Source: an uncultured Gammaproteobacteria bacterium
GTDB taxonomy: Bacteria; Patescibacteriota; Microgenomatia; Levybacterales; UBA12049
NCBI GenBank assembly: GCA_964507055.1
Contig: CAZDOJ010000001.1
Location: 273,313 to 337,312 of the forward strand
Reading direction: 5' to 3'
DNA length: 64,000 nt
The notes beneath the pieces were generated by a model. It did no database searches. It was not told the origin of the DNA and saw only the letters and a program-made list of their open reading frames with translations. The first letter of the stretch is position 1, and every line of letters begins with the position of its first letter. Position numbers and translations under genes: made by a program. Below, one piece after another: positions 8,531 to 59,156 of the stretch.

Positions 8531-8597
8531 GTAGGCATTATAGTAAAAAAGTTGAGGTTTATAAAGGGATAATTATAAAAAATTGAATACACTAAAT

Positions 8598-9440
8598 TTA
8601 TTTTTCTGTAGAGGTTTTGTACACGGATATATAGTCTCCGATACTTATACCTAAATCTGTTAGTCCATGTCCAGGCCGAATTCTCTTTGGATTATCGTAT
8701 TGTGGCACAATACAAATGCCTAAGTTTTGAAGTTTTTCAACACTCTTTATCACTAGAAATGTTGGAGTTCCATTCGCGATTGATTGAGAAATGTCTAGAA
8801 TCCATTTGTTATATATTACGAAAGGGTTTAGTTCTGGATCAGTTGAAGTATGGCCAATTTGGTCCAATATAGGTTTCTCTTCATAGATTTGAAAACAAGC
8901 TTTTAATACGAGTAAATCCATAGAGCTAAGTTCCTTACATAATTTCATATATTGATATCCTAAAATTTCAGATTGTTCCCCAGAATCTTTGGAAATACTG
9001 TAAAAGAAAATAGATTTCATTGCTTGAAAAACAGTTTCATCAGGTGTCTCCGAGTTATCAATGTAATTCATAAGTTCAACAAATGATGCCTGATTTGTTG
9101 TAATGTCCCAATAATCATCTTTGGTTTTTCCTTTTGACTGATAGTTCTTAAGTTCTTTAAAAAATTGATCTAATAATCGGAGTTTGATCCCAGATTGTAC
9201 TAAATGTCCAAATGAGAGGACCAGATCTTTCTTATCTGACGCCAAAATTCCAGTAGCTATCTCTGTGATTACTGAAGCTGGTTTCTGAATATAGCGTTGC
9301 ACGGTGCTAAGATCTGTTTGTACACTAATACCCGAATCCTTAATTACAATACCAATTTTTGTTTTATCCTTGTCTTTCATGCTCACATTATACCATTCAT
9401 AAAAGTAATCATTGGTAATCTCGGTGTGGTTTGAGCACAT
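8598..9440 (-). CDS. hypothetical protein (about 280 aa; the longest ORF reaches 9530 but a start at the internal Met at 9440 avoids overlap with the upstream gene)
   Basis: Long ORF with no recognisable motif, translationally coupled to the JAB-domain gene upstream. Confidence 0.45.
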   Translation of the reverse strand: MCSNHTEITNDYFYEWYNVSMKDKDKTKIGIVIKDSGISVQTDLSTVQRYIQKPASVITEIATGILASDKKDLVLSFGHLVQSGIKLRLLDQFFKELKNYQSKGKTKDDYWDITTNQASFVELMNYIDNSETPDETVFQAMKSIFFYSISKDSGEQSEILGYQYMKLCKELSSMDLLVLKACFQIYEEKPILDQIGHTSTDPELNPFVIYNKWILDISQSIANGTPTFLVIKSVEKLQNLGICIVPQYDNPKRIRPGHGLTDLGISIGDYISVYKTSTEK

Positions 9441-29833: not shown

Positions 29834-30565
29834 ATGATAGAAACAATTTTTACAACAATTGCTGGAGCAACATTATTTATTACATCTGCTGCATTTATGC
29901 CGCAGACGACAACTGATGTTGCTTTGACGCATACACTTCCACATCAAAGTTATGTTTCATATGCTGTTGAATCAGATCAATCTCTTGCAGCTATTTCTCA
30001 GAAGTATTATGGTTCTGAAGATTATTGGACTAACATCTGGAATGACAATAATTGGATTACTGATCCAGAAAGTGTTGAGAAGGGTCATTTGGTCAAAATT
30101 AATCCTACTAAACCTGAAGTCGCAGCGACTTTAGATAGTGTCCTTGCAGATCGTGCTGCAGCGGTTACAGAGCAAAAAAATCAAGAATACTTAAAGAGTA
30201 TTGGTTATTTGCAAGGAACATCAGCTGTTGTGGCTACAGTTCCAACTGTAACACCTATCATTACTCAAGCTCCAGTAAATGTTGCTGTAGCAGCCAATGC
30301 ATCGGGGATTTCTGAAGAAGCTATTACAGCTTTGGGAGCATGTGAAGCTGGAAACGATCCTGCAAAAAATACTGGTAACGGATACTATGGTGCCTTTCAA
30401 TTCTCAGCAGGTACTTGGAACAGTATGAATACAGGGTATGAACGTGCTGACCTTGCTCCAATAGAAGTACAACGTGCTGCTGTAAAGCAACTTTTGCAAC
30501 GATCAAGTATTCATAACCAATTTCCTGGATGTGCTAATAAGATGCGTAATGCTGGATTAATCTAA
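29834..30565 (+). CDS. membrane-anchored Rpf-like transglycosylase-domain protein
   Basis: N-terminal TM helix. The C-terminal GNGYYGAFQFSAGTW matches the transglycosylase-like (Rpf) domain. The ORF track begins at a TTG at 29798; the ATG at 29834 is the more likely start. Confidence 0.6.
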   Translation: MIETIFTTIAGATLFITSAAFMPQTTTDVALTHTLPHQSYVSYAVESDQSLAAISQKYYGSEDYWTNIWNDNNWITDPESVEKGHLVKINPTKPEVAATLDSVLADRAAAVTEQKNQEYLKSIGYLQGTSAVVATVPTVTPIITQAPVNVAVAANASGISEEAITALGACEAGNDPAKNTGNGYYGAFQFSAGTWNSMNTGYERADLAPIEVQRAAVKQLLQRSSIHNQFPGCANKMRNAGLI

Positions 30566-30568
30566 TAC

Positions 30569-31270
30569 CTAAACAGCCTTTGGAGTAGTCCCGTAGATAA
30601 CTAATGGGATTGAAGCATCTTTAAATGTCCACTCGTATATCTTTGCAACATCTGCTTCTTTCATATTCACACATCCATGACTCATCGGCTGGCCAAAATT
30701 ATTATGCCAGTAAGCTCCATGGATTCCATAGCCTCTCCATTTTGGCACTGCTGAATTTGCGAAGTACATTGTATATGGCACATTTGGTAGATTATAGTAT
30801 GTTCCATTAGCCTTGCTTCCTCCAGACATTCTTGTATATCGTAGCCATGTCCAAATTCTAAATTCACCCGTTGGTGTTTCATACCATTTACCCGTTGATA
30901 CTGGGAATTCATATACTAATCGATCACCTTCAAATGCTAAGAGTTTTTGCTGAGAAAGATCTACATATAAACGCTTATTCGTAGCTGTCGCATCTCCAAG
31001 TACATTCTGAGTTTCTTCCAAAGCGTATTGAGTCTTTTGTTGGGTTGGAGCATAGACAATCTTGCCATCAAATTCTCCTTTATTTTCGGTTTGCATTTCC
31101 CCCGTAAGATCTTCAATACAAGTAATTGAATTTGCACAGAAATCTTGGTTTTTAAGATTGAGGAAGATTGTGAGGCCAAGAGCAACAACAAATACTCCAA
31201 ATATAAGCATTGTTACTTTTAGTGCGTAGTGTTTACCTCTTTTTACTGGTTTAACAGATTTTTTAGGCAT
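30569..31270 (-). CDS. L,D-transpeptidase (YkuD domain)
   Basis: N-terminal TM anchor, with a catalytic HG ... SHGCVNM motif. Confidence 0.8.
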   Translation of the reverse strand: MPKKSVKPVKRGKHYALKVTMLIFGVFVVALGLTIFLNLKNQDFCANSITCIEDLTGEMQTENKGEFDGKIVYAPTQQKTQYALEETQNVLGDATATNKRLYVDLSQQKLLAFEGDRLVYEFPVSTGKWYETPTGEFRIWTWLRYTRMSGGSKANGTYYNLPNVPYTMYFANSAVPKWRGYGIHGAYWHNNFGQPMSHGCVNMKEADVAKIYEWTFKDASIPLVIYGTTPKAV

Positions 31271-31364
31271 TTATTAATTATTAGATAATCTCAGCTGCGT
31301 TGTAAAGAGGGATTTTTCTTATGGTACTTATATATAAATCAGACACACTCGAGGCTAATCAAAC

Positions 31365-31393
31365 TTGACAAAAAGACTTATAGTATGTATAAT
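31365..31393 (+). promoter_or_regulatory. sigma70-type promoter with perfect consensus
   Basis: TTGACA, a 17-nt spacer, then TATAAT, immediately upstream of the VanW-like gene. Confidence 0.7.
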
Positions 31394-31428
31394 AAAACAC
31401 TATGGGATATAAAAATCTCATAGATACT

Positions 31429-32109
31429 ATGTTTAAAAAATTACTTTTAATTATACCTATTGCGATCTTTCTCGGAGCTGTCCAAGTACAGGCTTTTTCT
31501 AATTCTGTTTCTGGAGTTGAAGCTGCAAAAGAAACATCTGTTAAAAAAGAATTGCTCAGTGAAGATGCAATGTCACTACAAAACAGATATTCCAATGCAT
31601 ATATTAACGATGTCTTCAAAGATAATATCCTTTTGAATCTTGCCTACTTATCTGGCAAAGTTCATGACGTATCAGAAGTTAATTGGGATGAAGTCCGCAA
31701 ACCTTCAACCTATGAATTTACTTTGCAGCCTGGACAAGTCTTTGCCTATCACGATGACATATTGCCTGAGTTTGAAGGCCGTGTTGCTAAAATTGGTGGA
31801 TCTCATTTTGGTGCTGCAGATGGCTACCGCTCGAGTGGTTTGCTTTACGGTGACGGGGTATGTCACTTCGCAACGCTTATTAACTGGGCTGCACAAGATG
31901 CTGGCTTGAAAGTTGTTGCTCCAACAAATCATAACTTTGCAGTTGTTCCTGGAATTGATCCGAAATATGGTACATCCATTTATTACGCACCTGAATCTCC
32001 ATCAGTGAGCCAGATGCAGAATCTCTATGTCGAAAATACATTGGAAGTCCCTGTAACTTTCGTTTTTGAAAATAAAGGTGATTCGTTAGAGGTAAGTATT
32101 TATAAATAA
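31429..32109 (+). CDS. secreted VanW-domain protein
   Basis: Signal peptide MFKKLLLIIPIAIFLGAVQVQA, with the VanW-like core GDGVCHFATLINWA. The ATG at 31402 lies only 8 nt after the -10 box, so the start at 31429 is preferred. Confidence 0.55.
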   Translation: MFKKLLLIIPIAIFLGAVQVQAFSNSVSGVEAAKETSVKKELLSEDAMSLQNRYSNAYINDVFKDNILLNLAYLSGKVHDVSEVNWDEVRKPSTYEFTLQPGQVFAYHDDILPEFEGRVAKIGGSHFGAADGYRSSGLLYGDGVCHFATLINWAAQDAGLKVVAPTNHNFAVVPGIDPKYGTSIYYAPESPSVSQMQNLYVENTLEVPVTFVFENKGDSLEVSIYK

Positions 32110-33285
32110 TTAAATCGTAAATCCTAATACCTTTAGCATGCTCTTCAATGCTTTTTGATTTTCCAAAGTTGGTCGCTCTTCTTGTTCCTCTGCAAGTTTA
32201 AAAACTGTTTCAACTGCTTTCGGAGTATCAAGATCATTTTCAAGAGCATTGGTAAATTGTTCTATCACTGTTTTTGGCTCGGTTCCTCGATCAATTGGTG
32301 ACTCTTGAAGAACTTCTTCGAGTTGTTCAATTTCTCTTTGTGCACTATTAAGTTCTTTTTGTCGGTATTCCCATGGAGTTCGATAGTGATGTCTGAGTAG
32401 CATGAGTCGTATTGCATCTGCTGAATATGTTTCCAACAATTTAGAAACCATGACCAGATTGCCCAATGATTTAGACATCTTTTCTCCTTCATACATTACA
32501 GCTCCCGTATGCATCCAAAATTGGGCGAATGGTTTTTCGCCAGTAAATTGTTCTGATTGTGCTATCTCACTTTCATGATGAGGATAAATTAAATCACTTC
32601 CGCCACCATGAATGTCAATCTTTTTGTCAAGATATTTGTAAGCCATTGCAGAGCATTCGATATGCCATCCTGGTCTTCCCTTGCCAAATGGTGCATCCCA
32701 AGATGGTTCCTCTTTGAGAGATTTTTGCCAAAGGATAAAGTCTAAAGGATTTTCTTTATTCGGATCATCAGGATCTGCTCCACGTTCTTTTGAAAGCTTT
32801 ATCATCTCCTTTTTTGAATATTTTGATAACTTTCCATACTCAGGATCTTTTTGTGTACGGAAATACACATTGTCGTTTTTTTCATAGGCGAATTCTTCGT
32901 CGAGGAGTTTTTGAATGAATTTGATAATCGTGTCCATTGTTTCAGTAGCTTTAACGTAGTGCGTTGGAGGGACGTTATTTAATGTCTTCATATCATTGAC
33001 ATACTTATCTGTCCAGAATTTTCCAAGACTCTTCCAATCTTCACCAATTTGTTTGGCCTTTTTCAAAATGTCATCGTCAACATCTGTCACATTTTGTGTG
33101 TAATTGATCGCATATCCTCGGTTTTCAAGCGTTCTATAAAGGACATCAAAGACAGTATACGTAAAAGCATGTCCTAAATGTGTCGTGTCATATGGCGTAA
33201 TTCCGCAGACATACATGAGTACTTCCCTCTTATTGATTGGGAGAAATGTTTCTGTTGATTTGGTAAGTGTATTATACAATTTCAT
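32110..33285 (-). CDS. CysRS-family class I enzyme, short form (391 aa): cysteinyl-tRNA synthetase or MshC-like cysteine ligase
   Basis: HIGH region CGITPYDTTHLGHA, KMSKS, GRPGWHIECSAM, GNLVMVSKL and NDLDTPKA. The roughly 70-aa C-terminal extension of canonical CysRS is absent. Confidence 0.85.
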   Translation of the reverse strand: MKLYNTLTKSTETFLPINKREVLMYVCGITPYDTTHLGHAFTYTVFDVLYRTLENRGYAINYTQNVTDVDDDILKKAKQIGEDWKSLGKFWTDKYVNDMKTLNNVPPTHYVKATETMDTIIKFIQKLLDEEFAYEKNDNVYFRTQKDPEYGKLSKYSKKEMIKLSKERGADPDDPNKENPLDFILWQKSLKEEPSWDAPFGKGRPGWHIECSAMAYKYLDKKIDIHGGGSDLIYPHHESEIAQSEQFTGEKPFAQFWMHTGAVMYEGEKMSKSLGNLVMVSKLLETYSADAIRLMLLRHHYRTPWEYRQKELNSAQREIEQLEEVLQESPIDRGTEPKTVIEQFTNALENDLDTPKAVETVFKLAEEQEERPTLENQKALKSMLKVLGFTI

Positions 33286-33329
33286 AAATGTAATAATAGA
33301 GTTTCTTCACGAATAATTCAATGAACGAA

Positions 33330-33812
33330 TTACCTTATTTTAGGGTCAAGTCTTGCAGCAAGGTCGCGATAGTTTTGAAATGCATTTGAGGAAGCATCTC
33401 GAATCCCTGCAATCTCCAAGACATTTGGTACTGTTATTCTTCTTAATTCACTTTGAGGATGCTCGACAAGTTGTTGCAATCGATCAACAACTAACGGAAC
33501 CCAACGCAAGCCTGTATTTACTCGATAACCTTTTCCTGAAACACCTTGTAACTGTAAAACATTGATCTCATCCTTGGCAATTTCAAAGCTGGCAATTGCT
33601 CCTGGGCTCTTTCTGCCTTTCGATTCATACACCACTACAAGTGATGCATCTCCTGTAAACGGAACTCCCATGTCTGCCCTCTCATGCCCTACCAATAAAG
33701 GAACGGTAAGTCTATTTGCATCAAGGCTTGGATTAATTGGACGAAGATATGGTGCAAAATCTTTCGCCGAAGGTGCTTGATATAACTCTTTTAGGTTTGG
33801 CATAGTACTCAA
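33330..33812 (-). CDS. hypothetical protein (160 aa)
   Basis: ORF between the CysRS-like gene and the phosphatase gene. Confidence 0.4.
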   Translation of the reverse strand: MSTMPNLKELYQAPSAKDFAPYLRPINPSLDANRLTVPLLVGHERADMGVPFTGDASLVVVYESKGRKSPGAIASFEIAKDEINVLQLQGVSGKGYRVNTGLRWVPLVVDRLQQLVEHPQSELRRITVPNVLEIAGIRDASSNAFQNYRDLAARLDPKIR

Positions 33813-33840
33813 TTATACTATATACAAGTAAAAGTATGAA

Positions 33841-34455
33841 TTAATAGGTTATTGAATCAGGAATAAAGATACTTTCAATCGTTTTCTTACCATCCTCGTC
33901 AGCCGTAATTTGTAAGACTTCTCCATGACGGACATATCGAAAACCTTTACCTGTGCGAATTGAATCAATTTCCAAAGGCATACCTCTGAGTACTGCTTTT
34001 ACTGTCATAAGGATATCACCGTGACTTACAGCGACAACATGTTTGCCAGAATGTTTTGTTACCACATGGTCAAGAAACTCAGTTGATCTTAAAGCCAGGT
34101 CTTCAAGTGTTTCGTCATCTTTTGCCCGTTCTGGACCGCTAAAAATATCAAATTTAATTTCCTGAAGCTTTTCTATTGGTTGTCCCATGTATGAACTTTT
34201 AACTTCTAATAAGTGATCAGAAAAGGTAATTTTAGGAAAATTCAATTCTTTTTGAATAATCTCAGCGGTTTTCTTTGCTCGAAGCAGTGGGCTTGCATAG
34301 AGTTCACTAACAGGTTTATTTTTAAGAAACTTTGCGGTCTGTGCTATCTCTTCTTCTCCTTGTTTGGTTAAACCAAATCGTGGGAGTCTACCATACCAAA
34401 CTTTATTAGGGTTTTCTACTTCGCCATGGCGAACTAAATAAATGTAGGTATTCAT
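33841..34455 (-). CDS. histidine phosphatase family protein (phosphoglycerate-mutase-like)
   Basis: Catalytic LVRHGE at the N-terminus and the SHGD motif. Confidence 0.8.
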   Translation of the reverse strand: MNTYIYLVRHGEVENPNKVWYGRLPRFGLTKQGEEEIAQTAKFLKNKPVSELYASPLLRAKKTAEIIQKELNFPKITFSDHLLEVKSSYMGQPIEKLQEIKFDIFSGPERAKDDETLEDLALRSTEFLDHVVTKHSGKHVVAVSHGDILMTVKAVLRGMPLEIDSIRTGKGFRYVRHGEVLQITADEDGKKTIESIFIPDSITY

Positions 34456-34479
34456 AAAAGAGTATTATATAATATCCAA

Positions 34480-35718
34480 ATGCAAAAGAAACGTCTAGCA
34501 GTAATTCTTTATCATACATGTCCTCTCTCGGATGAGATTGATGCCGAAATTGGTGGAGCAAATACCTATGTTCTGGAACTTTCAAAGTCTTTAGCAAAAA
34601 AGGGAAAAGTTCTTGATGTTTATACTCGGCTTCAGGATCCGAAAAGTGAAAGGATCGTACACGTCAGTCCAAATCTTCGAGTTATTCATTTACCTGCTGG
34701 TCCGTTGAAGAAAATTGATAAAAAAGAACAGGAGCAACATATTCCCGATTTTTTGAACAACTTTTATGCATTTGTTGAAAAAGAAGAACTTTCTTATTCG
34801 ATAGTGAGCTGTCATTATTATTTATCAGGAATAATTGGATTGGATATTAAAAAGAAGTTTGGTATTCCCTTGGTAATGACATTTCATACACTTGGACTTA
34901 TGAAGAATCTCGTTGCCCGTAGTGATGAAGAACGTGAAAGTGTTGAACGTATCAAAACAGAAATTAAACTGGTCAAAGAATCAGATCAGATTATCGCCAC
35001 AAGTGAAAATGATGCTCAGTATATTGAATCCTTATACTCGGGTGATCGAAATAAAATCGCAATTCTTATCCCTGGAGTGAACTTATCGTTATTTAAACCA
35101 TCAGACAAAATTGTTGCAAAGAAAGCTATTGGAGCTGATCCGGATCATAAGGTTATACTTTTTGTTGGAAGGATAGAACCTTTAAAAGGAATTGATGTTT
35201 TATTGTATGCGTTGAAAATCATTCTTAATGAGTATCCAAATTTCCGTTTGTGTGTTTGGATTGTTGGCGGAGATGTCTCCAAACCATCGGACCATTGGCC
35301 CAAAGAGTTAAAAAAGCTTAATGAAATTAGAAAAGTATTACAGATAGATACTGCAGTAAAGTTTGTAGGAAGAAAAGAACCTGTGGAATTGCCTAATTAT
35401 TATAATGCGTCTGAAATGCTGGTCTTACCTTCACACTACGAATCATTTGGTATAACTGCTGTTGAAGCGATGGCTTGTGGTATTCCTGTTATTACAACTG
35501 ATGTTACTGGAGTCTCCGATATTCTTGATCAAGATCATGATTTTCTAATCACCTCAGCCAATAATCCCATTATGCTTGCAGATAAAATAAAATCACTCCT
35601 TTGTGATAAAAAAGAGTACACAAAATTGAGCAGTAGATTACCTCAGAAGGTAAAAGATTTAAGTTGGGACGATGCGGCAGATCATTTTATGAAGCTTTGT
35701 ATTGCCTGTGTAAAATAA
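34480..35718 (+). CDS. GT4 glycosyltransferase, MshA-like subfamily
   Basis: N-terminal AVILYHTCPL ... GGANTYVLEL ... DVYTR; the SHYYLSG, PLVMTFHTL, FVGRIEPLKGIDVL and SHYESFGITAVEAMACGIPVI motifs follow. Confidence 0.8.
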   Translation: MQKKRLAVILYHTCPLSDEIDAEIGGANTYVLELSKSLAKKGKVLDVYTRLQDPKSERIVHVSPNLRVIHLPAGPLKKIDKKEQEQHIPDFLNNFYAFVEKEELSYSIVSCHYYLSGIIGLDIKKKFGIPLVMTFHTLGLMKNLVARSDEERESVERIKTEIKLVKESDQIIATSENDAQYIESLYSGDRNKIAILIPGVNLSLFKPSDKIVAKKAIGADPDHKVILFVGRIEPLKGIDVLLYALKIILNEYPNFRLCVWIVGGDVSKPSDHWPKELKKLNEIRKVLQIDTAVKFVGRKEPVELPNYYNASEMLVLPSHYESFGITAVEAMACGIPVITTDVTGVSDILDQDHDFLITSANNPIMLADKIKSLLCDKKEYTKLSSRLPQKVKDLSWDDAADHFMKLCIACVK

Positions 35719-39470: not shown

Positions 39471-40763
39471 TCAGACTCCTTTCTGTTTGTTTTTGAATTG
39501 AAACTCAAATTCTCTATCAGGTCTTACAAGTGTAAATCTTAATTTCGGTATTGGATCGTTCAGACATGAAATATCATCTGTACTTTCAAGTAGCGCTGGC
39601 ACATATTCTTTATGTATAGCTTGAGTTAAATGCTTGCCAAAGCATCTTCTTAGTCCAGGACTAAATTGAAGGTCATAATTACTTCGCTGGCTTGAGGTAG
39701 GATCGTCTTGGTCAGGAAATGTAAATAATGGAACTGCTAAGAGAGAATCAACGGGCATTACACCTGTAGAAATTTCCCAGGGCTGAGTGGTTCTACGCAA
39801 AATAAAAGTTGATGTTGGATTTTTAGCTGCTGATCTTTCTAGAAACTGTCTGCATAAAGCTGGAAAATCTTCAGTTCCTAATGCACTTCGTAGTTGCTCC
39901 TGACTTGTTTTATCTTTGGCCAAATTGTATGTAATCCATTCCAATGATGTTGCAAGTTCACCTTGTCCTGTAATTGTTCCTCTAAAAGTTTCCATAACTT
40001 GATCCTCTGCTTGTGTATCCAGTACCTGTGTAAGCACCCCTTCTGTTCCCTGATCGACTGCTCTTGTGACTACTTGATCTAATACATCTGTGTATGGTTC
40101 TATTCTTTTCTCTGCAAAGCGTCTTATTGAACCAATATTGCCCGTTTTAAAAACAAGTAATGGACTAGTTATATAGTAACTGTTAAAGCTATCAATAATT
40201 TTGTCAGCCTCCTCAACAGGTAAGTGCTGTCCAAGGTATGTACCGAGAATTGCTCGTGCTGCAAATCTTCTAAATAGCCGAGAAGAGGGGACATCGCCAT
40301 GTGCTAATTCTTCTGTTAATCTTTCTGTTGCAGTTCCTACAGCATCTTCTACAATAGCTTCATGTATCTTTAGATTTCTAGGTGAAACTGAGGGTGAAAG
40401 TTCAGCACGTGCATCCCTCCATTCCTCAAGTGTTGAGTTATCTTGTATAACTCCGCCTTGAGTAGCAATCATAAATCTTTTTTCTCCTGCAGGCATGACC
40501 ACTCCTTCAAAATCCGTCATGAGTACTTTTTTCGCGAGGGTTCTTGAAGTTACAAGGTATGATTGCCGAAAACCTGGAACGGAGATAGGAAGTCTCATTA
40601 AATCTGCTTGTTCTCCTACTTCTTCAACCAGTTGCTTCCATGGTTCAAGTTTCAGTGTCCTTGGAAATTGAGGATTTGATTGACCAAGATGTAGTATGCT
40701 TTTCGTTATTTCGTAAGTACTGGGCGTATAAACTTCTGGTGCATTTTGTCTTTCTGTAGCCAT
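39471..40763 (-). CDS. cytochrome P450
   Basis: Heme-binding loop FSPGLRRCFGKHL (FxxGxRxCxG) and the ETFRG (ExxR) motif. The ORF extends to 40838, but the MATERQ start at 40763 avoids overlap with the divergent PLD gene. Confidence 0.8.
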   Translation of the reverse strand: MATERQNAPEVYTPSTYEITKSILHLGQSNPQFPRTLKLEPWKQLVEEVGEQADLMRLPISVPGFRQSYLVTSRTLAKKVLMTDFEGVVMPAGEKRFMIATQGGVIQDNSTLEEWRDARAELSPSVSPRNLKIHEAIVEDAVGTATERLTEELAHGDVPSSRLFRRFAARAILGTYLGQHLPVEEADKIIDSFNSYYITSPLLVFKTGNIGSIRRFAEKRIEPYTDVLDQVVTRAVDQGTEGVLTQVLDTQAEDQVMETFRGTITGQGELATSLEWITYNLAKDKTSQEQLRSALGTEDFPALCRQFLERSAAKNPTSTFILRRTTQPWEISTGVMPVDSLLAVPLFTFPDQDDPTSSQRSNYDLQFSPGLRRCFGKHLTQAIHKEYVPALLESTDDISCLNDPIPKLRFTLVRPDREFEFQFKNKQKGV

Positions 40764-40839
40764 AACTGGAACAGAATTATACCATAGGATATAGCAAGTG
40801 TTGCTATATCCTACAGAATTTTTTATAATCCCTTTCATG

Positions 40840-42018: not shown

Positions 42019-42813
42019 ATGAGTAAGACAAAACAACTAAAAATAAGTTCCTCAATTACTGATTTTGCGCCATTATTTCTCGATTTGGAATACATGTTTA
42101 AAGGCCTCAAGAATGCAGGTGTTGATGGTGTAGAACTTGTGGTTGGTTTAAAATCACGTTGGTCAGTTGATAGAATAAAACATCTTTCAAAGAAATATAA
42201 GCTACCAGTTACGAGTATTCATCAGCCTGTATGGGGTGGATTGGGATTATCTTTTGATGAAGGGTTTTTCGATATAGCAAAACAGCTCGCTGTTAAGAAA
42301 GTGGTTTGTCATCCAATTCCAAGGTACTCACTCAAAGAAAAACCAATGCAGGATTATCTCAAAAGACTTTCTCGTATAAAAAAGAACACTGGAATCGACA
42401 TTCTCTTGGAAAATCTTTCTCCAAATTATGATAATAAGCTTGTGGATCCTTTTTTCCCGCTGGGTAAGGATACTGGAAATATGCAAGAAATATACTCCGC
42501 AGCTAGAGAACATAATCTTAATGTAACCTTAGATATTGATCATCTTTCAAAAGAAAAGCCGCATAAAGAAAAATGGATGAAGGAAATAGTACCTTATATT
42601 GGCAATGTACATTTAAGTAGCTTTACATCAACTGAGCATCATATGCCTTTATACATGGGAAACTTTAAAGCGAAAGAGTTTATTCAGTACCTAGAGAAAC
42701 AGAATTATAAAGGATTACTAACATTTGAGATTTACTATCCTAGCTTTCTCAAGCCCTTTGGATATGATTTTGATGCAATAAGAAAATCAGTCCAACTTCT
42801 TAAGCAAAACTAG
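42019..42813 (+). CDS. xylose-isomerase-like TIM-barrel protein (paralogue of 27145-27930)
   Basis: Motifs shared with the paralogue: DFAPLF, KSRWS, HQPVW, DEGFF, VVCHP, LENL, TLDIDHL, HKEKW, IGNxHLSSF and YKGLLTFEI. Confidence 0.6.
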   Translation: MSKTKQLKISSSITDFAPLFLDLEYMFKGLKNAGVDGVELVVGLKSRWSVDRIKHLSKKYKLPVTSIHQPVWGGLGLSFDEGFFDIAKQLAVKKVVCHPIPRYSLKEKPMQDYLKRLSRIKKNTGIDILLENLSPNYDNKLVDPFFPLGKDTGNMQEIYSAAREHNLNVTLDIDHLSKEKPHKEKWMKEIVPYIGNVHLSSFTSTEHHMPLYMGNFKAKEFIQYLEKQNYKGLLTFEIYYPSFLKPFGYDFDAIRKSVQLLKQN

Positions 42814-42878: not shown

Positions 42879-44141
42879 ATGTTTGACGTTGCTAAATTCC
42901 GACAACTGTTCCCAGCATTAAAAGAAAATGAAAGTAAGAAACCTCCCATCTTTCTTGATGCAGTAGGAGGCACCCAAGTGCCACAGACCGTTATTGACGC
43001 TGTTACAGATCACTTAATTACCAAAAATGGTAATAAAGGTGGAGTATTTCCTACAAGCGTAAAAACAGATGAAATGATGGAGGAGACTCGGAAAATTGTA
43101 GCAGAATTTATTAACGCTCCAGATTCGAATGAAATCATATTTGGCCCAAACTTTACTACTTTAACATTCAGTATTAGTCGTTCATTGGCAAAAACATGGG
43201 AAAAGGGTGATGAAATTATCCTTAGCCGACTTGATCATGATGCAAATGTTTCCCCATGGGTACTTGCCGCTGAAGATACAGGTGTAGTTGTCCGATACAT
43301 GGATATTGACGATAATACATGCCAAATAAATTTAGACAGCTACAAAAACGTGCTTTCAGAAAAGACAAAACTCGTTGCCTTCTGTGCGGCATCAAGTTCT
43401 GTTGGTACTAGAACTGATGTAAAAACAATAGCAAGAATGGCACATGAAGTAGGTGCTTTGGTTTATGTCGATGCAGTTGCATATGCACCTCACGATTCGA
43501 TAGATGTACAAGAATGGGAAGCTGACTTTGTTGGTTGCTCTAGTTATAAATTCTTTGGTCCTCACGTTGGACTATTGTGGGGGAAAAGGCAGTATCTTGA
43601 AGCGCTCCCTGCTTATAAAATACGGCCTGCACCTAATGAAATTCCTGTAAAATGGATGAACGGTGCGCAATCATTTGAAATTGTTACTGGAGCAAAAGCG
43701 GCAATTGAATATCTTGCTTATGTAGGTAAAGAAAATCCATCTTTTAGAGATTACTATCCTCAGTTTACAGGGAGACAACTAGACATTCATGCTGGTATGT
43801 CCGCAATAGCAGAATATGAGTCTTCACTAACATGGAGGTTTATTAAGGAAATTAAAAAGCGTCCACGGTATACACTGTGGGGAGTAAGTGAAGAAAAGGA
43901 CAAAATGTGGAGAGTACCAACGATTGCAATCTCATTGGGAAATGAACAGTCAGATAAGATTGCTAAATATCTCGCAGAAAATAATATATACATTTGGAGT
44001 AGAAGTGTTTACTCTATCTCATTATCTGAACGATTAGGGCTTGAGAAGACAGGTGGATTTATACGTGTAGGATTTGCCCATTACAATACAAATGAAGAAG
44101 TAGATACTTTGCTTGAAAAACTAGACCAGTATCAGGTTTAA
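42879..44141 (+). CDS. class-V aminotransferase / cysteine-desulfurase-like PLP enzyme
   Basis: PLP-lysine motif GCSSYKFFGPHVG in a typical fold-type I layout; 420 aa. Confidence 0.75.
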   Translation: MFDVAKFRQLFPALKENESKKPPIFLDAVGGTQVPQTVIDAVTDHLITKNGNKGGVFPTSVKTDEMMEETRKIVAEFINAPDSNEIIFGPNFTTLTFSISRSLAKTWEKGDEIILSRLDHDANVSPWVLAAEDTGVVVRYMDIDDNTCQINLDSYKNVLSEKTKLVAFCAASSSVGTRTDVKTIARMAHEVGALVYVDAVAYAPHDSIDVQEWEADFVGCSSYKFFGPHVGLLWGKRQYLEALPAYKIRPAPNEIPVKWMNGAQSFEIVTGAKAAIEYLAYVGKENPSFRDYYPQFTGRQLDIHAGMSAIAEYESSLTWRFIKEIKKRPRYTLWGVSEEKDKMWRVPTIAISLGNEQSDKIAKYLAENNIYIWSRSVYSISLSERLGLEKTGGFIRVGFAHYNTNEEVDTLLEKLDQYQV

Positions 44142-44174: not shown

Positions 44175-44819
44175 CTATAATTTCTGAATCATCGCTATAC
44201 TTACATGTTTCAATGAGGAAACAATTTTAGTAGCTGGATAGTCGCCCTTGATGTCTGCTACAAGGCCAATAGACTTCATATTAGCTGCGGTAGCTCCAAT
44301 CATGCCACTTCGGCCGTCTTCAATAACAATAGCCTCTTCAGGTCGAACTCCAAGCCGTTTTGCTGCAAGAAGAAATATATCAGGCGCAGGTTTACCATGT
44401 GTTACTTCATATGATGATACAAGGGTATCAAAATACTTTCTGATATTGAGTGCATCCATAACTTCATCTATAAAGTCTTTGGTTGATGCTGATGCTATTG
44501 CAAGTTTGAACCTGTTATTCTTGAGTTCTTTTATCAAAGCTATTGCATAAGGGATCGCAGTAAGCCTTCCTTTTGTAACTTTTTCCATGAGCTCCCATTT
44601 CTTATACAGAATATCAGGGGTCGAATACTCAGTCACTCCATGCTTCTCAAAAATCTCTGCAAACATCTTTTCATCAGGAACGCCAGCATATACGGCAGAA
44701 ATTTCTTCAGGTTTCATGGCAATCCCATATTCCTTTAAGAGCATGCTTTCAATCTCCCCATGAAAACTTTGAGTATCAGATACGACACCGTCCATATCAA
44801 AGATCACAGCTTTTATCAT
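44175..44819 (-). CDS. HAD-family hydrolase (beta-phosphoglucomutase-like subfamily)
   Basis: Motif I VIFDMDGVV, with motif III/IV K ... EDGRSG. Confidence 0.8.
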   Translation of the reverse strand: MIKAVIFDMDGVVSDTQSFHGEIESMLLKEYGIAMKPEEISAVYAGVPDEKMFAEIFEKHGVTEYSTPDILYKKWELMEKVTKGRLTAIPYAIALIKELKNNRFKLAIASASTKDFIDEVMDALNIRKYFDTLVSSYEVTHGKPAPDIFLLAAKRLGVRPEEAIVIEDGRSGMIGATAANMKSIGLVADIKGDYPATKIVSSLKHVSIAMIQKL

Positions 44820-45448: not shown

Positions 45449-45520
45449 GAGCGGGCGATGGGAATCGAACCCACTACCTTCTCCTTGGCAAGGAGACGTT
45501 CTACCGATGAACTACGCCCG
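45449..45520 (-). tRNA. tRNA-Gly (anticodon GCC)
   Basis: GCGGGCGTAGTTCATCGGTAGAACGTCTCCTTGCCAAGGAGAAGGTAGTGGGTTCGATTCCCATCGCCCGCT, with a U discriminator base. Confidence 0.9.
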
Positions 45521-45574
45521 CAATATAGTGAATTATACCAAAATCCCCTTTTTTCCTCAACTCATCATAAAATA

Positions 45575-46996
45575 TCAGACTTTATCAAAAGATTTAAGGT
45601 CTCCCCATTCCTTCCCTACTTTCACATCAACTGTCGTTGGGACGGAGAGTGGATAGACAGATGTCATCACATTTTGGATTTCTTTGATGATGTCGGATTC
45701 AAGTTTCTCATCTGGTATTTCAAAAACTAAATCGTCGTGAATCGTCAAGAGTAATGCGACTTCAGGATGTTTGGTAAGGATTTCATTATGCACATCCACC
45801 ATAACCTTCTTCATAAAGTCCGCTGCTGTTCCTTGGATTGGATAGTTCATCAGAACTCTTCGCATACTATTATCGATGAACTTTCTTTTGGGATCTTCAA
45901 AGACATATCTTCTTCGTCCGAGGATTGTTTCGACAGTCCCGTGAATCTTGGCATGTTTTAAATACATATCATAGAAATTTCGGATATTTGGATAAGATGC
46001 ATAAAATTGTTTGATGAATTGATCTGCTGCTTCTTGTGGGATATTGAGTCCGGCACTCATGCCGTAACTACTCATACCATAGATGATACCGAAGTTAATC
46101 GTCTTTCCAATATGTCTTTGTTCTTTGGTTACTTCGTCATAATCCGTCGTAAACAATTTGCTCGCAGTCAGTGTGTGCACATCTTGCCCATCTGCAAAGG
46201 CTTTAATGAGTGCTTTTTCATCAGACAAATGAGCAAGGATTCTCAATTCCTGTTGAGAATAATCAAATGACACAAATGTATGATCAGGTTTTGCAATAAA
46301 ACATGATTTAATAGCTTGTCCCATTTCTGATGTCACCGGGATGTTCTGGAGATTTGGATTTAATGACGCAAGTCGACCAGTATTGACCATGACTTGATTG
46401 TAGGTCGTGTGTATCAATCCGTCTTCGCTGACTTTTTGGATCAGGCTTTCGACGTACGTCGAGCGGAGTTTACTCAATTCCCGATGTTTCAATAAATTAT
46501 GAATGATATCAAATTGGTCTGCAAATTTTGAAAGCTCTGCTTCATTGGTTGCGTACTTTCCTGTTTTGGTCAAACTCAATGGAACTCCCATTTTCTCAGC
46601 AAGAAATGTCCCTAGTTGTAGCGGCGATTTGAGATTGATTCCTCCACCTGTTTCCTTGGCAATATCTTCTTCAAGTTCGACTAATAAACTATCAATTTTT
46701 TCTCCAACCGATTGTAGTTTCTTCACATCCAAAATGATTCCATGCTTTTCCATCCCACGGAGTACTTTTGCCAGTGGCAACTCGATTTCAAAATAAAGCT
46801 TTTCAAGTTTGGGGAGTTCTTTTAATGCGACTTGTTGTTTCTTTGCGAGTTCATCAAGGGTTTTGGCATCGTATTTTTTTAGGGTCTCTTCTTTACTTTT
46901 TAATCCATAACCTTCAAGTAAAAGTGCTTCAGCGATGTAGCAATCAAAGACATCATCAAATTCTTCTGCGGATTTACAATCCCATATTGCTTTCAT
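45575..46996 (-). CDS. polA: DNA polymerase I, polymerase (family A) domain only (473 aa)
   Basis: Motif A DYSQQELR, motif B RHIGKTINFGIIYG and motif C TIHDDLVFE. No 5'-3' exonuclease domain is encoded upstream. Confidence 0.9.
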   Translation of the reverse strand: MKAIWDCKSAEEFDDVFDCYIAEALLLEGYGLKSKEETLKKYDAKTLDELAKKQQVALKELPKLEKLYFEIELPLAKVLRGMEKHGIILDVKKLQSVGEKIDSLLVELEEDIAKETGGGINLKSPLQLGTFLAEKMGVPLSLTKTGKYATNEAELSKFADQFDIIHNLLKHRELSKLRSTYVESLIQKVSEDGLIHTTYNQVMVNTGRLASLNPNLQNIPVTSEMGQAIKSCFIAKPDHTFVSFDYSQQELRILAHLSDEKALIKAFADGQDVHTLTASKLFTTDYDEVTKEQRHIGKTINFGIIYGMSSYGMSAGLNIPQEAADQFIKQFYASYPNIRNFYDMYLKHAKIHGTVETILGRRRYVFEDPKRKFIDNSMRRVLMNYPIQGTAADFMKKVMVDVHNEILTKHPEVALLLTIHDDLVFEIPDEKLESDIIKEIQNVMTSVYPLSVPTTVDVKVGKEWGDLKSFDKV

Positions 46997-58634: not shown

Positions 58635-59156
58635 TTAACCGTATTGTTCTTGGTGTTTCTTTTTTAGGTCTTTATATTCCTTATCTTCTCTAGCAAGTAA
58701 ATATTTTTCGTAGAAGATTCTTGCGGATTGGGCTTTTTCGTTATTTTCCCAGTCTGATTCTTGTGGGCGAACTTTGGTTCTGGCTATTTTTTCTTTCTCA
58801 ATAGTCTTTTCTAATTGAGGATTCTTCTCATATTTTCTACCCGTTGCATGATTCGCATATCTTCTTGAACGAGTGTAACCCATCTGCAGAAATTTTCTCG
58901 ACATATCCATCCCGACAAAATCGTTTTGTTTTTTATATTCAAGAAACATTTTATAAATTTTTTCTGAAGAGATTTTTGCAATTGCTGGTGTCCTGAATCT
59001 CCAATGCTGCACTATTTCTGATTTGTATGGCTCAACGAGGAGTACACCTTGTTCACCTATTCCAACTTGGTATAAATCTGGGTTTTCTCTGAAGTTAATA
59101 TGTTTGAAGTCTTTGGAATAATCAAATTTGAGCTTTCGCATCGAGATTCTTTTCAC
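58635..59156 (-). CDS. hypothetical protein (173 aa)
   Basis: ORF overlapping the upstream TopIB gene by 35 nt. Confidence 0.4.
   Translation of the reverse strand: MKRISMRKLKFDYSKDFKHINFRENPDLYQVGIGEQGVLLVEPYKSEIVQHWRFRTPAIAKISSEKIYKMFLEYKKQNDFVGMDMSRKFLQMGYTRSRRYANHATGRKYEKNPQLEKTIEKEKIARTKVRPQESDWENNEKAQSARIFYEKYLLAREDKEYKDLKKKHQEQYG

What the first reader, a model, noticed from the sequence alone, without database searches (positions are those of the whole stretch)
32110..35718. A mycothiol-like thiol-biosynthesis cluster: MshC-like cysteine ligase, histidine phosphatase and MshA-like GT4 glycosyltransferase
The GT4 enzyme (34480-35718) has N-terminal motifs (ILYHTCPL ... GGANTYVLEL ... 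DVYTR, then NLRVIHLPAGP, SHYYLSG, PLVMTFHTL). These characterise the MshA / sugar-phosphate-acceptor subfamily of retaining GT4 enzymes; MshA makes GlcNAc-inositol-phosphate. Directly adjacent is a histidine-phosphatase-family enzyme. It has the chemistry expected for the still-unidentified MshA2 phosphatase step. The third gene is a 391-aa CysRS paralogue with the HIGH region CGITPYDTTHLGHA and the GNLVMVSKL and NDLDTPKA motifs. It lacks the C-terminal ~70 aa of true CysRS. From memory, these features match the mycothiol cysteine ligase MshC better than E. coli-type CysRS (CGPTVYD, GNFFTV, DDFNTP). Mycothiol is considered restricted to Actinobacteria. In this low-GC, non-actinobacterial-looking genome, an MshA-phosphatase-MshC-like trio would point to a mycothiol-like cysteinyl-aminosugar thiol or a related Cys-glycoconjugate. 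Alternatively the 391-aa gene is simply this organism's compact CysRS.
Basis: partly seen in the sequence, partly recalled or inferred. Interest (0 to 1): 0.75.

Follow-up and report, generated by a model that had tools for sequence, protein, structure and literature searches.

The report
Compact CysRS beside sugar-phosphate glycosyltransferase pair
A small candidate-phyla bacterium carries a shortened cysteine-tRNA-ligase-type enzyme, built like the mycothiol enzyme MshC but keeping a normal CysRS active site, next to a conserved glycosyltransferase-plus-phosphatase pair; it is most likely the cell's ordinary CysRS, but gene-neighbourhood evidence leaves a real chance that these bacteria make a mycothiol-like thiol.

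Summary
The genes are real and the quoted motifs are present. There is also an unmentioned 160-aa ORF between the ligase and the phosphatase, and the GT4 is transcribed divergently.

The 391-aa protein belongs to a very large clade of compact CysRS-like proteins without an anticodon-binding domain (CPR, Chloroflexota, Dormibacteria, deep Actinomycetota). The clade shares a 4-residue CP-domain insertion with MshC, and the predicted fold is closest to MshC (RMSD 1.8 Å). However, it passes the cysS model (422.9 bits, cutoff 340) and fails the MshC model (415.5 bits, cutoff 485.1). It keeps the CysRS residues that MshC has lost, including the Glu zinc ligand. Elsewhere its relatives sit mostly among housekeeping genes (tatD, thrS, dnaE, secF, argS).

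GT4 plus phosphatase is a genuine conserved module. All phosphate-clamp residues are invariant, and it also occurs without the ligase.

One result resists a purely "ordinary" verdict. In 9 of 9 sister CPR loci the compact ligase is paired with an LmbE/MshB-type deacetylase.

Best reading (about 0.5): a housekeeping compact CysRS beside a two-step glycoside-phosphate synthase/phosphatase module. A Cys-aminoglycoside (mycothiol-like) role, alone or in a bifunctional enzyme, keeps about 0.35. The decisive test, counting CysRS genes in the closed genome, could not be run.

The parts
32110..33285 (-). Compact (391 aa) CysRS-family cysteine ligase without the C-terminal anticodon-binding alpha/beta domain. 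HIGH region at residues 36-39, 4-residue CP-domain insertion with ERGADPDDP at 167-175, WHIECS at 207, DIHGGG at 224, PHHESEIAQSE at 235, KMSKS at 269.
   Evidence: (TIGR00435 422.9 bits, cutoff 340; TIGR03447 415.5 bits, cutoff 485.1).
33330..33812 (-). 160-aa ORF of unknown function between the phosphatase and the ligase. This is a variable slot: the ORF is present in the 83%-identical relative L003, absent in L004, L012 and L020, and replaced by a TPR protein in L026 and a DUF4342 protein in L021.
   Evidence: (no Pfam or NCBIfam hit).
33841..34455 (-). Histidine-phosphatase superfamily (branch 1) enzyme, 204 aa, with catalytic RHG at residues 9-11 and a second His at 145. Conserved partner of the GT4.
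   Evidence: PF00300, 99.2 bits; no equivalog reached; best PDB match is PhoE-type phosphatase, 40 bits; pairing with the GT4.
34456..34479 (.). 24-bp AT-rich spacer (AAAAGAGTATTATATAATATCCAA) between the divergent start codons of the phosphatase and the GT4.
   Evidence: Promoter-like hits in the region are no more frequent than in shuffled sequence.
34480..35718 (+). Retaining GT4 glycosyltransferase of the MshA / sucrose-phosphate-synthase branch, 412 aa. Acceptor-phosphate clamp K81/Y113/T137/R157, catalytic H136 and E321, UDP-binding R231/K236/E329.
   Evidence: TIGR03449 306.9 bits, cutoff 462.5; CgMshA 208.8 bits, TeSPS 176.8 bits; roles of the TeSPS residues; residues kept in 110-120 of 120 homologues.
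28464..32109 (.). Syntenic downstream block that travels with the ligase in subclade A: VanW-like (31402-32109, +), YkuD L,D-transpeptidase (30569-31270, -), transglycosylase (29798-30565, +) and a PfkB-family kinase (28464-29564, -).

Best explanation
Two things lie side by side. (1) A conserved two-gene module. The GT4 transfers a sugar from a UDP-sugar onto a phosphorylated acceptor (a sugar-phosphate or inositol-phosphate type molecule), as MshA and sucrose-phosphate synthase do. The neighbouring histidine phosphatase then removes the phosphate and releases a free glycoside. The product is unknown. (2) The organism's cysteinyl-tRNA synthetase in the compact form typical of this lineage, lacking the anticodon-binding domain. 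It activates cysteine with ATP on a zinc site identical to that of canonical CysRS and most likely transfers it to tRNA-Cys, relying on acceptor-end recognition. This compact clade is the stock from which actinobacterial MshC evolved, which explains why it looks like MshC. The adjacency of (1) and (2) is inherited synteny in one CPR lineage, at a tRNA-Gly integration hotspot, and is not a dedicated thiol operon. Shown: family assignments, conserved residues, GT4-phosphatase co-conservation, shared insertion with MshC, housekeeping contexts. Inferred: tRNA charging, the two-step chemistry, and the incidental nature of the adjacency.
For: The ligase passes the curated cysS cutoff and fails the MshC cutoff; close relatives behave the same way. 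It keeps 62 of 68 positions that are at least 90% conserved in 118 canonical CysRSs (91%, against 79% for MshC). At the 11 positions where MshC departs from CysRS it has the CysRS residue at 7 (including zinc ligand E238, H224, Q241), a conservative change at 1, and the MshC state at none. MshC hallmarks DxQGGG and PHHE[YFM][SG]AA are absent. GT4-linked subclade A and unlinked subclade B are indistinguishable in these measures and show no long branch, unlike MshC. An enzyme without this domain can still charge tRNA-Cys (PMC5389517). In a wider sample of 80 metagenome loci, 76 encode compact proteins. Their recurrent neighbours are tatD (11 loci, 4-bp overlap), dnaE (6) and thrS (5), or secF, dprA and uppP in low-GC loci; only one locus has a PIG-L neighbour and none has the GT4. 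GT4 plus phosphatase stay adjacent without the ligase (L023, L024), and the phosphatase is replaced by a HAD/S6PP-type phosphatase in L021. tRNA-Gly(GCC) and integrases flank the module, and in L025 the tRNA abuts the ligase directly with the module absent. No LmbE, GNAT or Ino1 in the window. All acceptor-phosphate and catalytic residues of the GT4 are conserved.
Against: I could not show that this is the only CysRS in the genome. The ligase shares with MshC, and with no canonical CysRS, a 4-residue insertion carrying the ERGxDPxxP motif; by my reading of the alignment it lies in the CP1 stretch that reads the first tRNA base pair. The predicted fold is closer to MshC. The ligase shares a contig with the GT4 in at least 29 of 49 representatives on contigs of 10 kb or more, down to about 58% identity, and also in the more divergent L022. 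In 9 of 9 non-A CPR loci of the sister subclades the ligase is paired, mostly divergently, with a PIG-L/LmbE (MshB/BshB family) deacetylase, even where the deacetylases are only 32% identical; a PIG-L gene also lies nearby in Dormibacteria (L016) and in L063. Two different mycothiol-pathway-type neighbours for the same ligase are hard to attribute to chance.
Confidence: 0.5

Rival explanations
1. Bifunctional ligase. The compact enzyme is the cell's only CysRS and also transfers activated cysteine to the amino group of a glucosaminyl glycoside made by GT4, then phosphatase, then an LmbE-type deacetylase encoded elsewhere. This would give a mycothiol/bacillithiol-like thiol. It would be the ancestral state from which Actinobacteria derived a dedicated MshC by duplication.
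For: It reconciles both sets of data: CysRS-type active site, cysS model pass and housekeeping contexts, together with linkage to the MshA-like GT4 plus phosphatase in subclade A and to PIG-L deacetylases in subclades B and C. The derived CP insertion and domain loss are shared with MshC, and the fold is closest to MshC.
Against: No precedent for a CysRS with both activities. No locus combines GT4, phosphatase, PIG-L and ligase among about 40 loci with useful flanks. No PIG-L was found in the window or on long subclade-A contigs by contig-length joining, although that test is insensitive. Most compact-ligase loci have neither partner.
Confidence: 0.2
2. Dedicated MshC-like ligase. The 391-aa protein does not charge tRNA. 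It ligates cysteine to an aminoglycoside, and a separate full-length CysRS is encoded elsewhere in the genome.
For: MshC-like architecture, shared insertion and fold. JGI/KEGG-type annotation already calls these proteins MshC. Conserved neighbours of MshA, phosphatase and MshB type. Compact forms also occur in 4.5-Mb genomes, and Chloroflexota have both compact and full-length forms in the databases.
Against: Fails the MshC equivalog cutoff. Has none of the MshC-specific substitutions and no accelerated evolution. None of the 5 named full-length representatives (of 10 looked up) was from CPR. No second CysRS in 0.51 Mb of related DNA held, which is weak evidence. Translational coupling to tatD and the dnaE-compact-thrS blocks in relatives look like a translation gene. 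A 1.3-Mb reduced genome is less likely to keep two CysRS-type genes.
Confidence: 0.18
3. The GT4-phosphatase module (with LmbE deacetylases in related genomes) serves cell-envelope glycoconjugate synthesis, for example a GlcN-inositol-phospholipid of the PIG-A/PIG-L type or another GlcNAc-bearing polymer. The ligase is merely embedded in a cell-wall gene neighbourhood.
For: The module sits beside VanW, YkuD L,D-transpeptidase and transglycosylase genes in all subclade-A loci. From established knowledge, PIG-A is a GT4 enzyme and PIG-L is the founding LmbE-family member acting on GlcNAc-phosphatidylinositol.
Against: The acceptor clamp matches soluble sugar-phosphate or inositol-phosphate enzymes (MshA, SPS). 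No membrane segments or lipid-synthesis genes were noted next to the GT4. GT4 and PIG-L genes were never seen together.
Confidence: 0.08

Closest known systems
[quoted passage not shown]
   Same: Same overall architecture: catalytic Rossmann domain, CP domain and helical domain, with no C-terminal anticodon-binding alpha/beta domain. Same 4-residue CP insertion with the ERGxDPxxP motif (34-residue segment in 25/25 CPR compact proteins and 4/4 MshCs, against 30 residues in 90/118 CysRSs). Closest predicted fold (RMSD 1.8 Å, TM 0.91/0.89). Ungapped alignment through the CP region.
   Different: 415.5 bits, below the 485.1 cutoff. Keeps DIHGGG and PHHESEIAQSE, including the Glu zinc ligand, where MshC has DxQGGG and PHHE[YF]SAAH. 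At 11 positions diagnostic for MshC versus CysRS it never has the MshC state. Not on the long MshC branch. Not from Actinobacteria.
Canonical bacterial CysRS (TIGR00435; E. coli 1LI5/1U0B)
   Same: Passes the equivalog cutoff (422.9 bits, cutoff 340). Has HIGH, KMSKS, all four zinc ligands and W205-type residues. 91% of canonical-invariant positions are retained. Best PDB sequence hit is a CysRS (8QHP, 346.7 bits).
   Different: Lacks about 70-110 C-terminal residues (median tail after the DDxxTP motif is 31 against 114 residues). Has the CP insertion. Lacks K73 of the KIIK motif, K185 and N237.
CysRS* of Desulfobacterales (Mukai et al., PMC5389517)
   Same: A natural CysRS-family enzyme without the anticodon-binding domain and with an altered CP1 motif; an engineered mimic of it charged a tRNA-Cys species.
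   Different: CysRS* is a second copy dedicated to a selC-like tRNA-Cys(UCA) and encoded next to selB*. The protein here is in a different clade, has no such neighbours, and may be the sole copy.
MshA (TIGR03449; C. glutamicum 3C48/3C4Q/3C4V) and cyanobacterial sucrose-phosphate synthase (TeSPS 6KIH)
   Same: Best family and best solved relative (306.9 bits; 208.8 and 176.8 bits). The residues aligned with CgMshA N25, K78, Y110, H133, T134, R154, R231, K236, E316 and E324 are all identical. They correspond to TeSPS R105, H158, R178, R249, E331 and E339, whose roles are described in PMC7264703.
   Different: Below the MshA cutoff (462.5) and far below the SPS cutoff (109.7 against 576). Donor sugar and acceptor are unknown. 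No inositol-phosphate synthase was seen in the window.
Two-step glycoside-phosphate synthase/phosphatase pathways (SPS/SPP, MshA/MshA2, and, from memory, GpgS/GpgP)
   Same: A glycosyltransferase acting on a phosphorylated acceptor is encoded next to a phosphatase. The pairing survives changes of gene orientation and replacement by a non-homologous phosphatase (His_Phos to HAD/S6PP).
   Different: No known pathway uses this particular GT4 subfamily with a branch-1 histidine phosphatase. MshA2 itself is still unidentified, so identity with it cannot be tested.

Membership tests
MshC (TIGR03447) | Scores at or above the curated equivalog cutoff (485.1 bits) | tested here: not met
   415.5 bits. 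Seven other compact relatives, from CPR, an Actinomycetota MAG and a Dormibacteria MAG, scored 368-424 bits; E. coli CysS scored 321.
MshC (TIGR03447) | [quoted passage not shown] | tested here: met
   391 aa; matches cysS profile positions 1-392 of 466. AF2 model (pLDDT 90.5) superposes on 3C8Z at RMSD 1.8 Å.
MshC (TIGR03447) | CP-domain insertion with the ERGGDPD-type motif | tested here: met
   ERGADPDDP at residues 167-175. The motif is in 0/118 canonical CysRSs, 21/25 CPR compact proteins and 3/4 MshCs.
MshC (TIGR03447) | MshC-specific active-site substitutions (DxQGGG; PHHE[YFM][SG]AA[HE]; three-ligand zinc site without the Glu) | tested here: not met
   The window protein has DIHGGG and PHHESEIAQSE, with a Glu at the position of E. 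coli E238. MshC zinc ligands as given in PMC9736012.
MshC (TIGR03447) | Genome also encodes MshA, MshB (LmbE family), MshD (GNAT) and a source of inositol phosphate | tested here: inconclusive
   An MshA-like GT4 is adjacent. No LmbE, GNAT or Ino1 in the 64-kb window.
MshC (TIGR03447) | [quoted passage not shown] | not testable with these tools
   Needs an enzyme assay.
CysRS (TIGR00435) | Scores at or above the curated equivalog cutoff (340 bits) | tested here: met
   422.9 bits.
CysRS (TIGR00435) | HIGH and KMSKS motifs and the four zinc ligands (E. coli C28, C209, H234, E238) | tested here: met
   HLGH at 36-39, KMSKS at 269, and C27, C211, H236, E240. The ligand list for E. coli is from my own knowledge of Newberry et al. 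2002, which is cited.
CysRS (TIGR00435) | C-terminal anticodon-binding alpha/beta domain | tested here: not met
   Absent in this protein and in every family member examined; the apparent long forms are N-terminal over-calls.
CysRS (TIGR00435) | Only CysRS-family gene of the genome / charges tRNA-Cys | not testable with these tools
   Only 64 kb of the genome is held. No second copy in the window or in 0.51 Mb of related loci.
MshA (TIGR03449) | Scores at or above the curated equivalog cutoff (462.5 bits) | tested here: not met
   306.9 bits. It is the best family by about 200 bits but is below the cutoff.
MshA (TIGR03449) | Residues contacting the acceptor phosphate and inositol, and UDP (CgMshA N25, K78, Y110, H133, T134, R154, R231, K236, E316, E324) | tested here: met
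   All identical in the window protein and in 110-120 of 120 homologues. The CgMshA residue list is partly from memory. R231 and E324 are confirmed in PMC2628429, and the equivalent TeSPS residues in PMC7264703.
MshA (TIGR03449) | Uses UDP-GlcNAc and 1L-myo-inositol-1-phosphate | not testable with these tools
   Neither donor nor acceptor can be read from the sequence here.
Sucrose-phosphate synthase (TIGR02472) | Scores at or above the curated cutoff (576 bits) | tested here: not met
   109.7 bits.
Histidine phosphatase superfamily, branch 1 (PF00300) | Pfam gathering score, plus the catalytic RHG motif and a second catalytic His | tested here: met
   99.2 bits against a cutoff of 21.7. RHG at 9-11 and SHG at 144-146. 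No equivalog-level assignment; best is cobC at 76 bits against a cutoff of 163.

The most novel reading that the evidence does not exclude
Levybacteria-type CPR bacteria make a mycothiol/bacillithiol-like cysteinyl-aminoglycoside thiol. The MshA-like GT4 and its phosphatase build a GlcNAc-glycoside, an LmbE-type deacetylase (adjacent to the ligase in sister lineages) frees the amine, and the compact CysRS-family enzyme adds cysteine, possibly while also serving as the cell's only CysRS. That would be the ancestral bifunctional state from which actinobacterial MshC arose. The conserved histidine phosphatase would then also point to the kind of enzyme that performs the still-unidentified MshA2 step.
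Probability: 0.35. Interest if true: 0.9.

Novelty: new variant of a known kind. Interest (0 to 1): 0.6.

Why it matters
1. Thousands of these compact proteins are annotated in contradictory ways: NCBI calls them "cysteine--tRNA ligase" and JGI/KEGG-style pipelines call them "MshC". At least one study simply zeroes "mycothiol genes" outside Actinomycetota. Showing that they form a distinct clade, with MshC architecture and a CysRS active site, explains the conflict.

2. The shared insertion and domain loss indicate that MshC descends from this compact lineage, which is a concrete hypothesis for the origin of mycothiol biosynthesis.

3. If the ligase is the only CysRS, CPR and several other phyla decode cysteine without anticodon-domain recognition. 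That matters for tRNA identity rules.

4. The tightly conserved GT4 plus phosphatase pair is a new two-step glycoside pathway in CPR. It also offers a testable lead (a histidine-phosphatase-type enzyme) for the unidentified MshA2 step.

5. If the thiol reading is right, a major uncultured radiation would have an unrecognised redox buffer.

Tried and rejected
- **Second CysS in the same genome.** The single genome-collection scan returned only 17 loci, because its patterns were query-specific. Contig-length joining found no second copy but is insensitive. Tblastn of all held DNA (0.51 Mb) found none, which is weak evidence.
- **Literature.** Nine full-text searches; those on MshC or mycothiol genes in CPR and on compact CysRS found nothing that addresses them. 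The MshC structure paper PMC2628295 was not held.
- **My first conclusion, that the trio is only local synteny of close relatives.** Revised after the contig-length coincidences and direct context look-ups.
- **My second swing, toward an MshC-like role after finding the PIG-L linkage.** Tempered by the 80-locus metagenome sample, which showed housekeeping contexts.
- **CGITPY as an MshC marker.** Rejected, because it occurs in full-length CysRSs.
- **NJ phylogeny.** Deep nodes are poorly supported (24% for the compact + MshC clade), so I rely on rare shared characters instead. The first bootstrap attempt timed out.
- **PfkB kinase as a substitute for Ino1.** No specific family assignment.
- **Regulatory RNAs and tRNA-Cys near the gene.** None found; only tRNA-Gly, Val, Phe, Asp and a LOOT RNA.
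- **Promoter and terminator scan.** Not above the shuffle expectation.
- **PIG-L orthologue on subclade-A contigs.** Not seen among the top 120 hits, which is uninformative given 32% identity between subclades.

Full report
**1. What is in the sequence**

The window is low-GC (about 0.34-0.41). It carries ordinary core genes (pheS, thrS, infC, trigger factor, obg, hflX, greA, polA and seven tRNAs). Identical or near-identical copies occur in public assemblies, one of them a 1,318,932-bp contig. The closest relatives are labelled Levybacteria/Microgenomates, that is, candidate phyla radiation (CPR).

At the reported coordinates there are four ORFs, not three:
- a 391-aa CysRS-like ligase (32110-33285, minus strand);
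- a 160-aa ORF with no family hit (33330-33812, minus strand);
- a 204-aa histidine phosphatase (33841-34455, minus strand);
- a 412-aa GT4 glycosyltransferase (34480-35718, plus strand), divergently transcribed 24 bp from the phosphatase start.

**2. The ligase: curated models**

It scores 422.9 bits on cysS (TIGR00435, cutoff 340) and 415.5 bits on MshC (TIGR03447, cutoff 485.1). For calibration, E. coli CysS scores 668 and 321 on the two models. Other CPR relatives score about 425-440 on cysS and 373-414 on MshC. An Actinomycetota-MAG relative scores 362 and 424. So the protein lies between the two families. It passes as CysRS and fails as MshC.

Its homologues form a very large family of 380-400-aa proteins. 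NCBI names them cysteine--tRNA ligase and JGI names them MshC. The apparently longer members are N-terminal over-calls, and none has the anticodon-binding domain.

**3. The ligase: shared derived characters with MshC**

In an alignment of 176 sequences I compared the CP-domain segment corresponding to E. coli Y152-F181:

| Group | Segment length | `R[GA]x[DN]Px[DN]P` motif |
|---|---|---|
| CPR compact proteins | 34 residues in 25/25 | 21/25 |
| Other compact proteins | 34 residues in 20/29 | 8/29 |
| MshC | 34 residues in 4/4 | 3/4 |
| Canonical CysRS | 30 residues in 90/118 | 0/118 |

The tail after the DDxxTP motif has a median of 31 residues, against 114 in canonical CysRS. [quoted passage not shown]

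An AlphaFold model (pLDDT 90.5) superposes best on MshC (3C8Z: RMSD 1.8 Å, TM 0.91/0.89). The fit to tRNA-bound E. coli CysRS (1U0B) is RMSD 2.8 Å, TM 0.91/0.78.

In neighbour-joining trees every compact protein and MshC fall in one group that contains no full-length CysRS. True MshC sits on a long branch among non-CPR compact proteins. Bootstrap support for that group is only 24%, against 100% for MshC itself. I therefore rest the common-ancestry claim on the insertion and the domain loss, not on the tree.

**4. The ligase: active site is CysRS-like**

Bona fide MshC sequences have DxQGGG and PHHE[YFM][SG]AA[HE], and they lack the Glu zinc ligand. The window protein, like all compact proteins and all canonical CysRSs, has DIHGGG and PHHESEIAQSE.

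Of 68 positions that are at least 90% conserved in 118 canonical CysRSs, the window protein keeps 62 (91%). Subclade A keeps 91%, subclade B 93% and MshC 79%. At the 11 positions where MshC departs from that consensus:
- the window protein has the CysRS residue at seven (Y152, L155, F181, H224, E238, Q241, W254);
- it has a conservative change at one (R168K);
- it never has the MshC state.

An enzyme without the anticodon-binding domain can still cysteinylate tRNA (PMC5389517).

**5. GT4 and phosphatase**

The GT4's best family is MshA (306.9 bits, cutoff 462.5). The next family, SPS, reaches only 109.7 bits. Its best solved relatives are C. glutamicum MshA (208.8 bits) and the cyanobacterial sucrose-phosphate synthase TeSPS (176.8 bits).

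The residues that clamp the acceptor phosphate and catalyse transfer in TeSPS (R105, R178, H158, E331, R249, E339; PMC7264703) and their CgMshA equivalents align with K81, R157, H136, E321, R231 and E329. Together with N28, Y113, T137 and K236 these are kept in 110-120 of 120 homologues. A phosphorylated acceptor is therefore well supported. The donor and acceptor identities are not.

The phosphatase has the RHG and second-His catalytic residues but no equivalog-level assignment.

The two genes are a real module:
- They are adjacent in every subclade-A locus with the ligase (L001, L003, L004, L012, L020, L022, L026).
- They are adjacent in convergent orientation without any ligase within 10 kb (L023, L024).
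- In L021 the histidine phosphatase is replaced by a HAD/S6PP-type sugar phosphatase on the other side of the ligase.

Non-orthologous replacement at the same locus is strong evidence for a synthase/phosphatase pair.

**6. Is the ligase part of that module?**

For:
- At least 29 of 49 ligase representatives on contigs of 10 kb or more share the contig with a GT4 homologue.
- Direct look-ups show the trio down to 58% ligase identity, and in the more divergent L022 with a 4-bp phosphatase/ligase overlap.

Against:
- The same loci also conserve VanW, YkuD and transglycosylase, so this is general synteny.
- The slot between phosphatase and ligase accepts unrelated insertions (the 160-aa ORF, a TPR protein, DUF4342).
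- tRNA-Gly(GCC) and integrases flank the module. In L025 the tRNA abuts the ligase directly and the module is absent.
- The GT4-phosphatase pair exists without the ligase.

**7. The unexpected deacetylase link**

In sister subclades a PIG-L/LmbE-family deacetylase (the MshB/BshB/Mca family) sits next to the ligase, mostly divergently and 0-55 bp away. Its best models are BshB2 at 118 bits and MshB at 93 bits, both below cutoff.

This holds in 9 of 9 loci: L005-L008, L027, L011, L013, L029 (Daviesbacteria), and L030, where an MFS transporter lies in between. The deacetylases of subclades B and C are only 32% identical to each other. A PIG-L gene also lies 1.5 kb from the ligase in a Dormibacteria MAG (L016) and 29 bp downstream of it in L063.

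No PIG-L gene is present in the window or within 10 kb in any subclade-A locus. No locus combines GT4, phosphatase, PIG-L and ligase.

**8. The wider picture**

A metagenome scan with the family alignment returned 80 loci at 43-55% identity. Of these, 76 encode compact proteins with CysRS-type motifs, and most are high-GC (0.5-0.74).

Their recurrent neighbours are:
- tatD, overlapping the ligase start by 4 bp in 11 loci (Pfam 259 bits);
- dnaE in 6 loci;
- thrS in 5 loci.

A 4.59-Mb actinobacterial genome has the same dnaE - compact - thrS block beside the PI/PIM operon. Low-GC, CPR-like loci nearest to subclades B and C have secF, dprA/mreCD, uppP or typA as neighbours, with no PIG-L or GT4. 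In subclade C the PIG-L and ligase pair itself lies next to argS and radA. These are the contexts of a translation gene.

**9. Synthesis**

The most economical reading is that the 391-aa protein is the lineage's CysRS in a compact form without the anticodon-binding domain. That form is widespread in CPR, Chloroflexota, Dormibacteria and deep Actinomycetota, and it is the stock from which MshC evolved. This explains why it looks like MshC while failing the MshC tests. The GT4 and phosphatase form an independent two-step pathway that makes an unknown glycoside. I give this reading 0.5.

I do not go higher for two reasons:
- I could not count the CysRS genes in the complete genome.
- The same ligase is linked to an MshA-like GT4 plus phosphatase in one CPR lineage and to an MshB-like deacetylase in its sisters. 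That pattern is hard to ascribe to chance and is what a terminal Cys-aminoglycoside ligase would show.

Two rivals therefore keep substantial weight:
- a bifunctional CysRS/ligase (0.2), which fits all the data but has no precedent;
- a dedicated MshC-like ligase with a separate CysRS elsewhere (0.18).

**10. Novelty**

I found no paper that describes compact CysRS in CPR or addresses the MshC-like annotations. One preprint discards such annotations as artefacts.

The parts belong to known kinds: the CysRS/MshC family, MshA/SPS-type GT4 enzymes and histidine phosphatases. The variants are new:
- an MshC-architecture enzyme with a CysRS active site;
- a GT4 paired with a branch-1 histidine phosphatase.

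**11. Basis of claims that rest on my own knowledge, not on a tool**

- The E. coli zinc-ligand numbering.
- Most of the CgMshA inositol-phosphate contact list.
- GpgP belonging to the histidine phosphatase superfamily.
- PIG-A being a GT4 enzyme.
- K73 lying in the KIIK motif implicated in CysRS persulfide synthase activity.

These are leads, not tests.

Noticed in passing
L005-L008, L011, L013, L027, L029, L030 (next to the CysRS-like gene); L016:7772-8533; L063, 29 bp downstream of the ligase: A PIG-L/LmbE (MshB/BshB family) deacetylase is paired, mostly divergently, with the compact CysRS-like gene in 9 of 9 sister CPR loci. It is also nearby in a Dormibacteria MAG and in one unassigned high-GC contig. 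An MFS transporter accompanies the pair in L007 and L030.
   Followed up: yes
window 45449-45521; L003:5518-5590; L004:6223-6295; L020:7616-7688; L022:11277-11350; L025:9942-10015; L026:1789-1863: tRNA-Gly(GCC) flanks the GT4-phosphatase module in most subclade-A loci. In L025 it abuts the ligase directly, with a phage-type integrase and an island of unannotated genes on the other side. L022 also has an integrase next to it. This looks like an integration hotspot.
   Followed up: partly
window 21509-27136 (-): A giant 1875-aa ORF. Its only Pfam hits are a GHKL/HSP90-like ATPase domain (HATPase_c_3, 53.9 bits; residues 154-254). The rest of the protein is unannotated.
   Followed up: no
window 39471-40838 (-): A 455-aa ORF with a weak cytochrome P450 hit (23.5 bits, just above the gathering score) and, by eye, a Cys-ligand-like FSPGLRRCFG motif. 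This is unusual for a CPR genome.
   Followed up: no
window 59122-60198 (-): A eukaryotic-type (type IB) DNA topoisomerase with the bacterial Top1B N-terminal domain (135 and 85 bits).
   Followed up: no
window 27145-27930 (-) and 42019-42813 (+): Two paralogous xylose-isomerase-like TIM-barrel proteins. Their best NCBIfam hit is the cobamide-remodelling phosphodiesterase CbiR (46-48 bits, below cutoff). One of them lies immediately downstream of the giant ORF.
   Followed up: no
window 42879-44141 (+) and 44175-44819 (-): A class-V aminotransferase (IscS/NifS-like cysteine desulfurase type, 219 bits) and a HAD phosphatase, about 7-9 kb from the ligase. This is another cysteine-consuming enzyme in the neighbourhood.
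   Followed up: no
window 28464-29564 (-); L006, L007, L008, L027 (1-6 kb from the ligase): A PfkB-family sugar kinase recurs a few kb from the compact ligase in both subclade-A and subclade-B loci. The two sets are only 23-27% identical to each other, and no substrate could be assigned.
   Followed up: partly
L027:7890-8372 and 8411-8662; L007:12727-13272: Oxidative-stress genes lie close to the PIG-L and ligase pair in subclade-B CPR loci: a nickel superoxide dismutase with its putative maturation peptidase in L027, and what looks by eye like a methionine sulfoxide reductase A in L007.
   Followed up: no
L022:17133-17251 (-): A LOOT RNA (RF03000, 83 bits) in a CPR-like contig that its source labels Limnocylindrales. 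Several source labels on these MAGs ('uncultured Gammaproteobacteria', 'Sulfotelmatobacter', 'Acidiferrales') look inconsistent with their Levybacteria-like gene content.
   Followed up: no
window 45575-46996 (-): A 473-aa family-A DNA polymerase that consists essentially of the polymerase domain only (DNA_pol_A, residues 92-466). No 5'-3' exonuclease domain was detected.
   Followed up: no
ligase residue 72 (window protein) and the aligned column in all compact proteins and MshC: All compact proteins and MshC lack the Lys equivalent to E. coli K73 (0% retention, against at least 90% in canonical CysRS). From memory, this Lys belongs to the KIIK motif implicated in the cysteine persulfide synthase activity of CysRS, so the compact clade may lack that moonlighting activity.
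   Followed up: no
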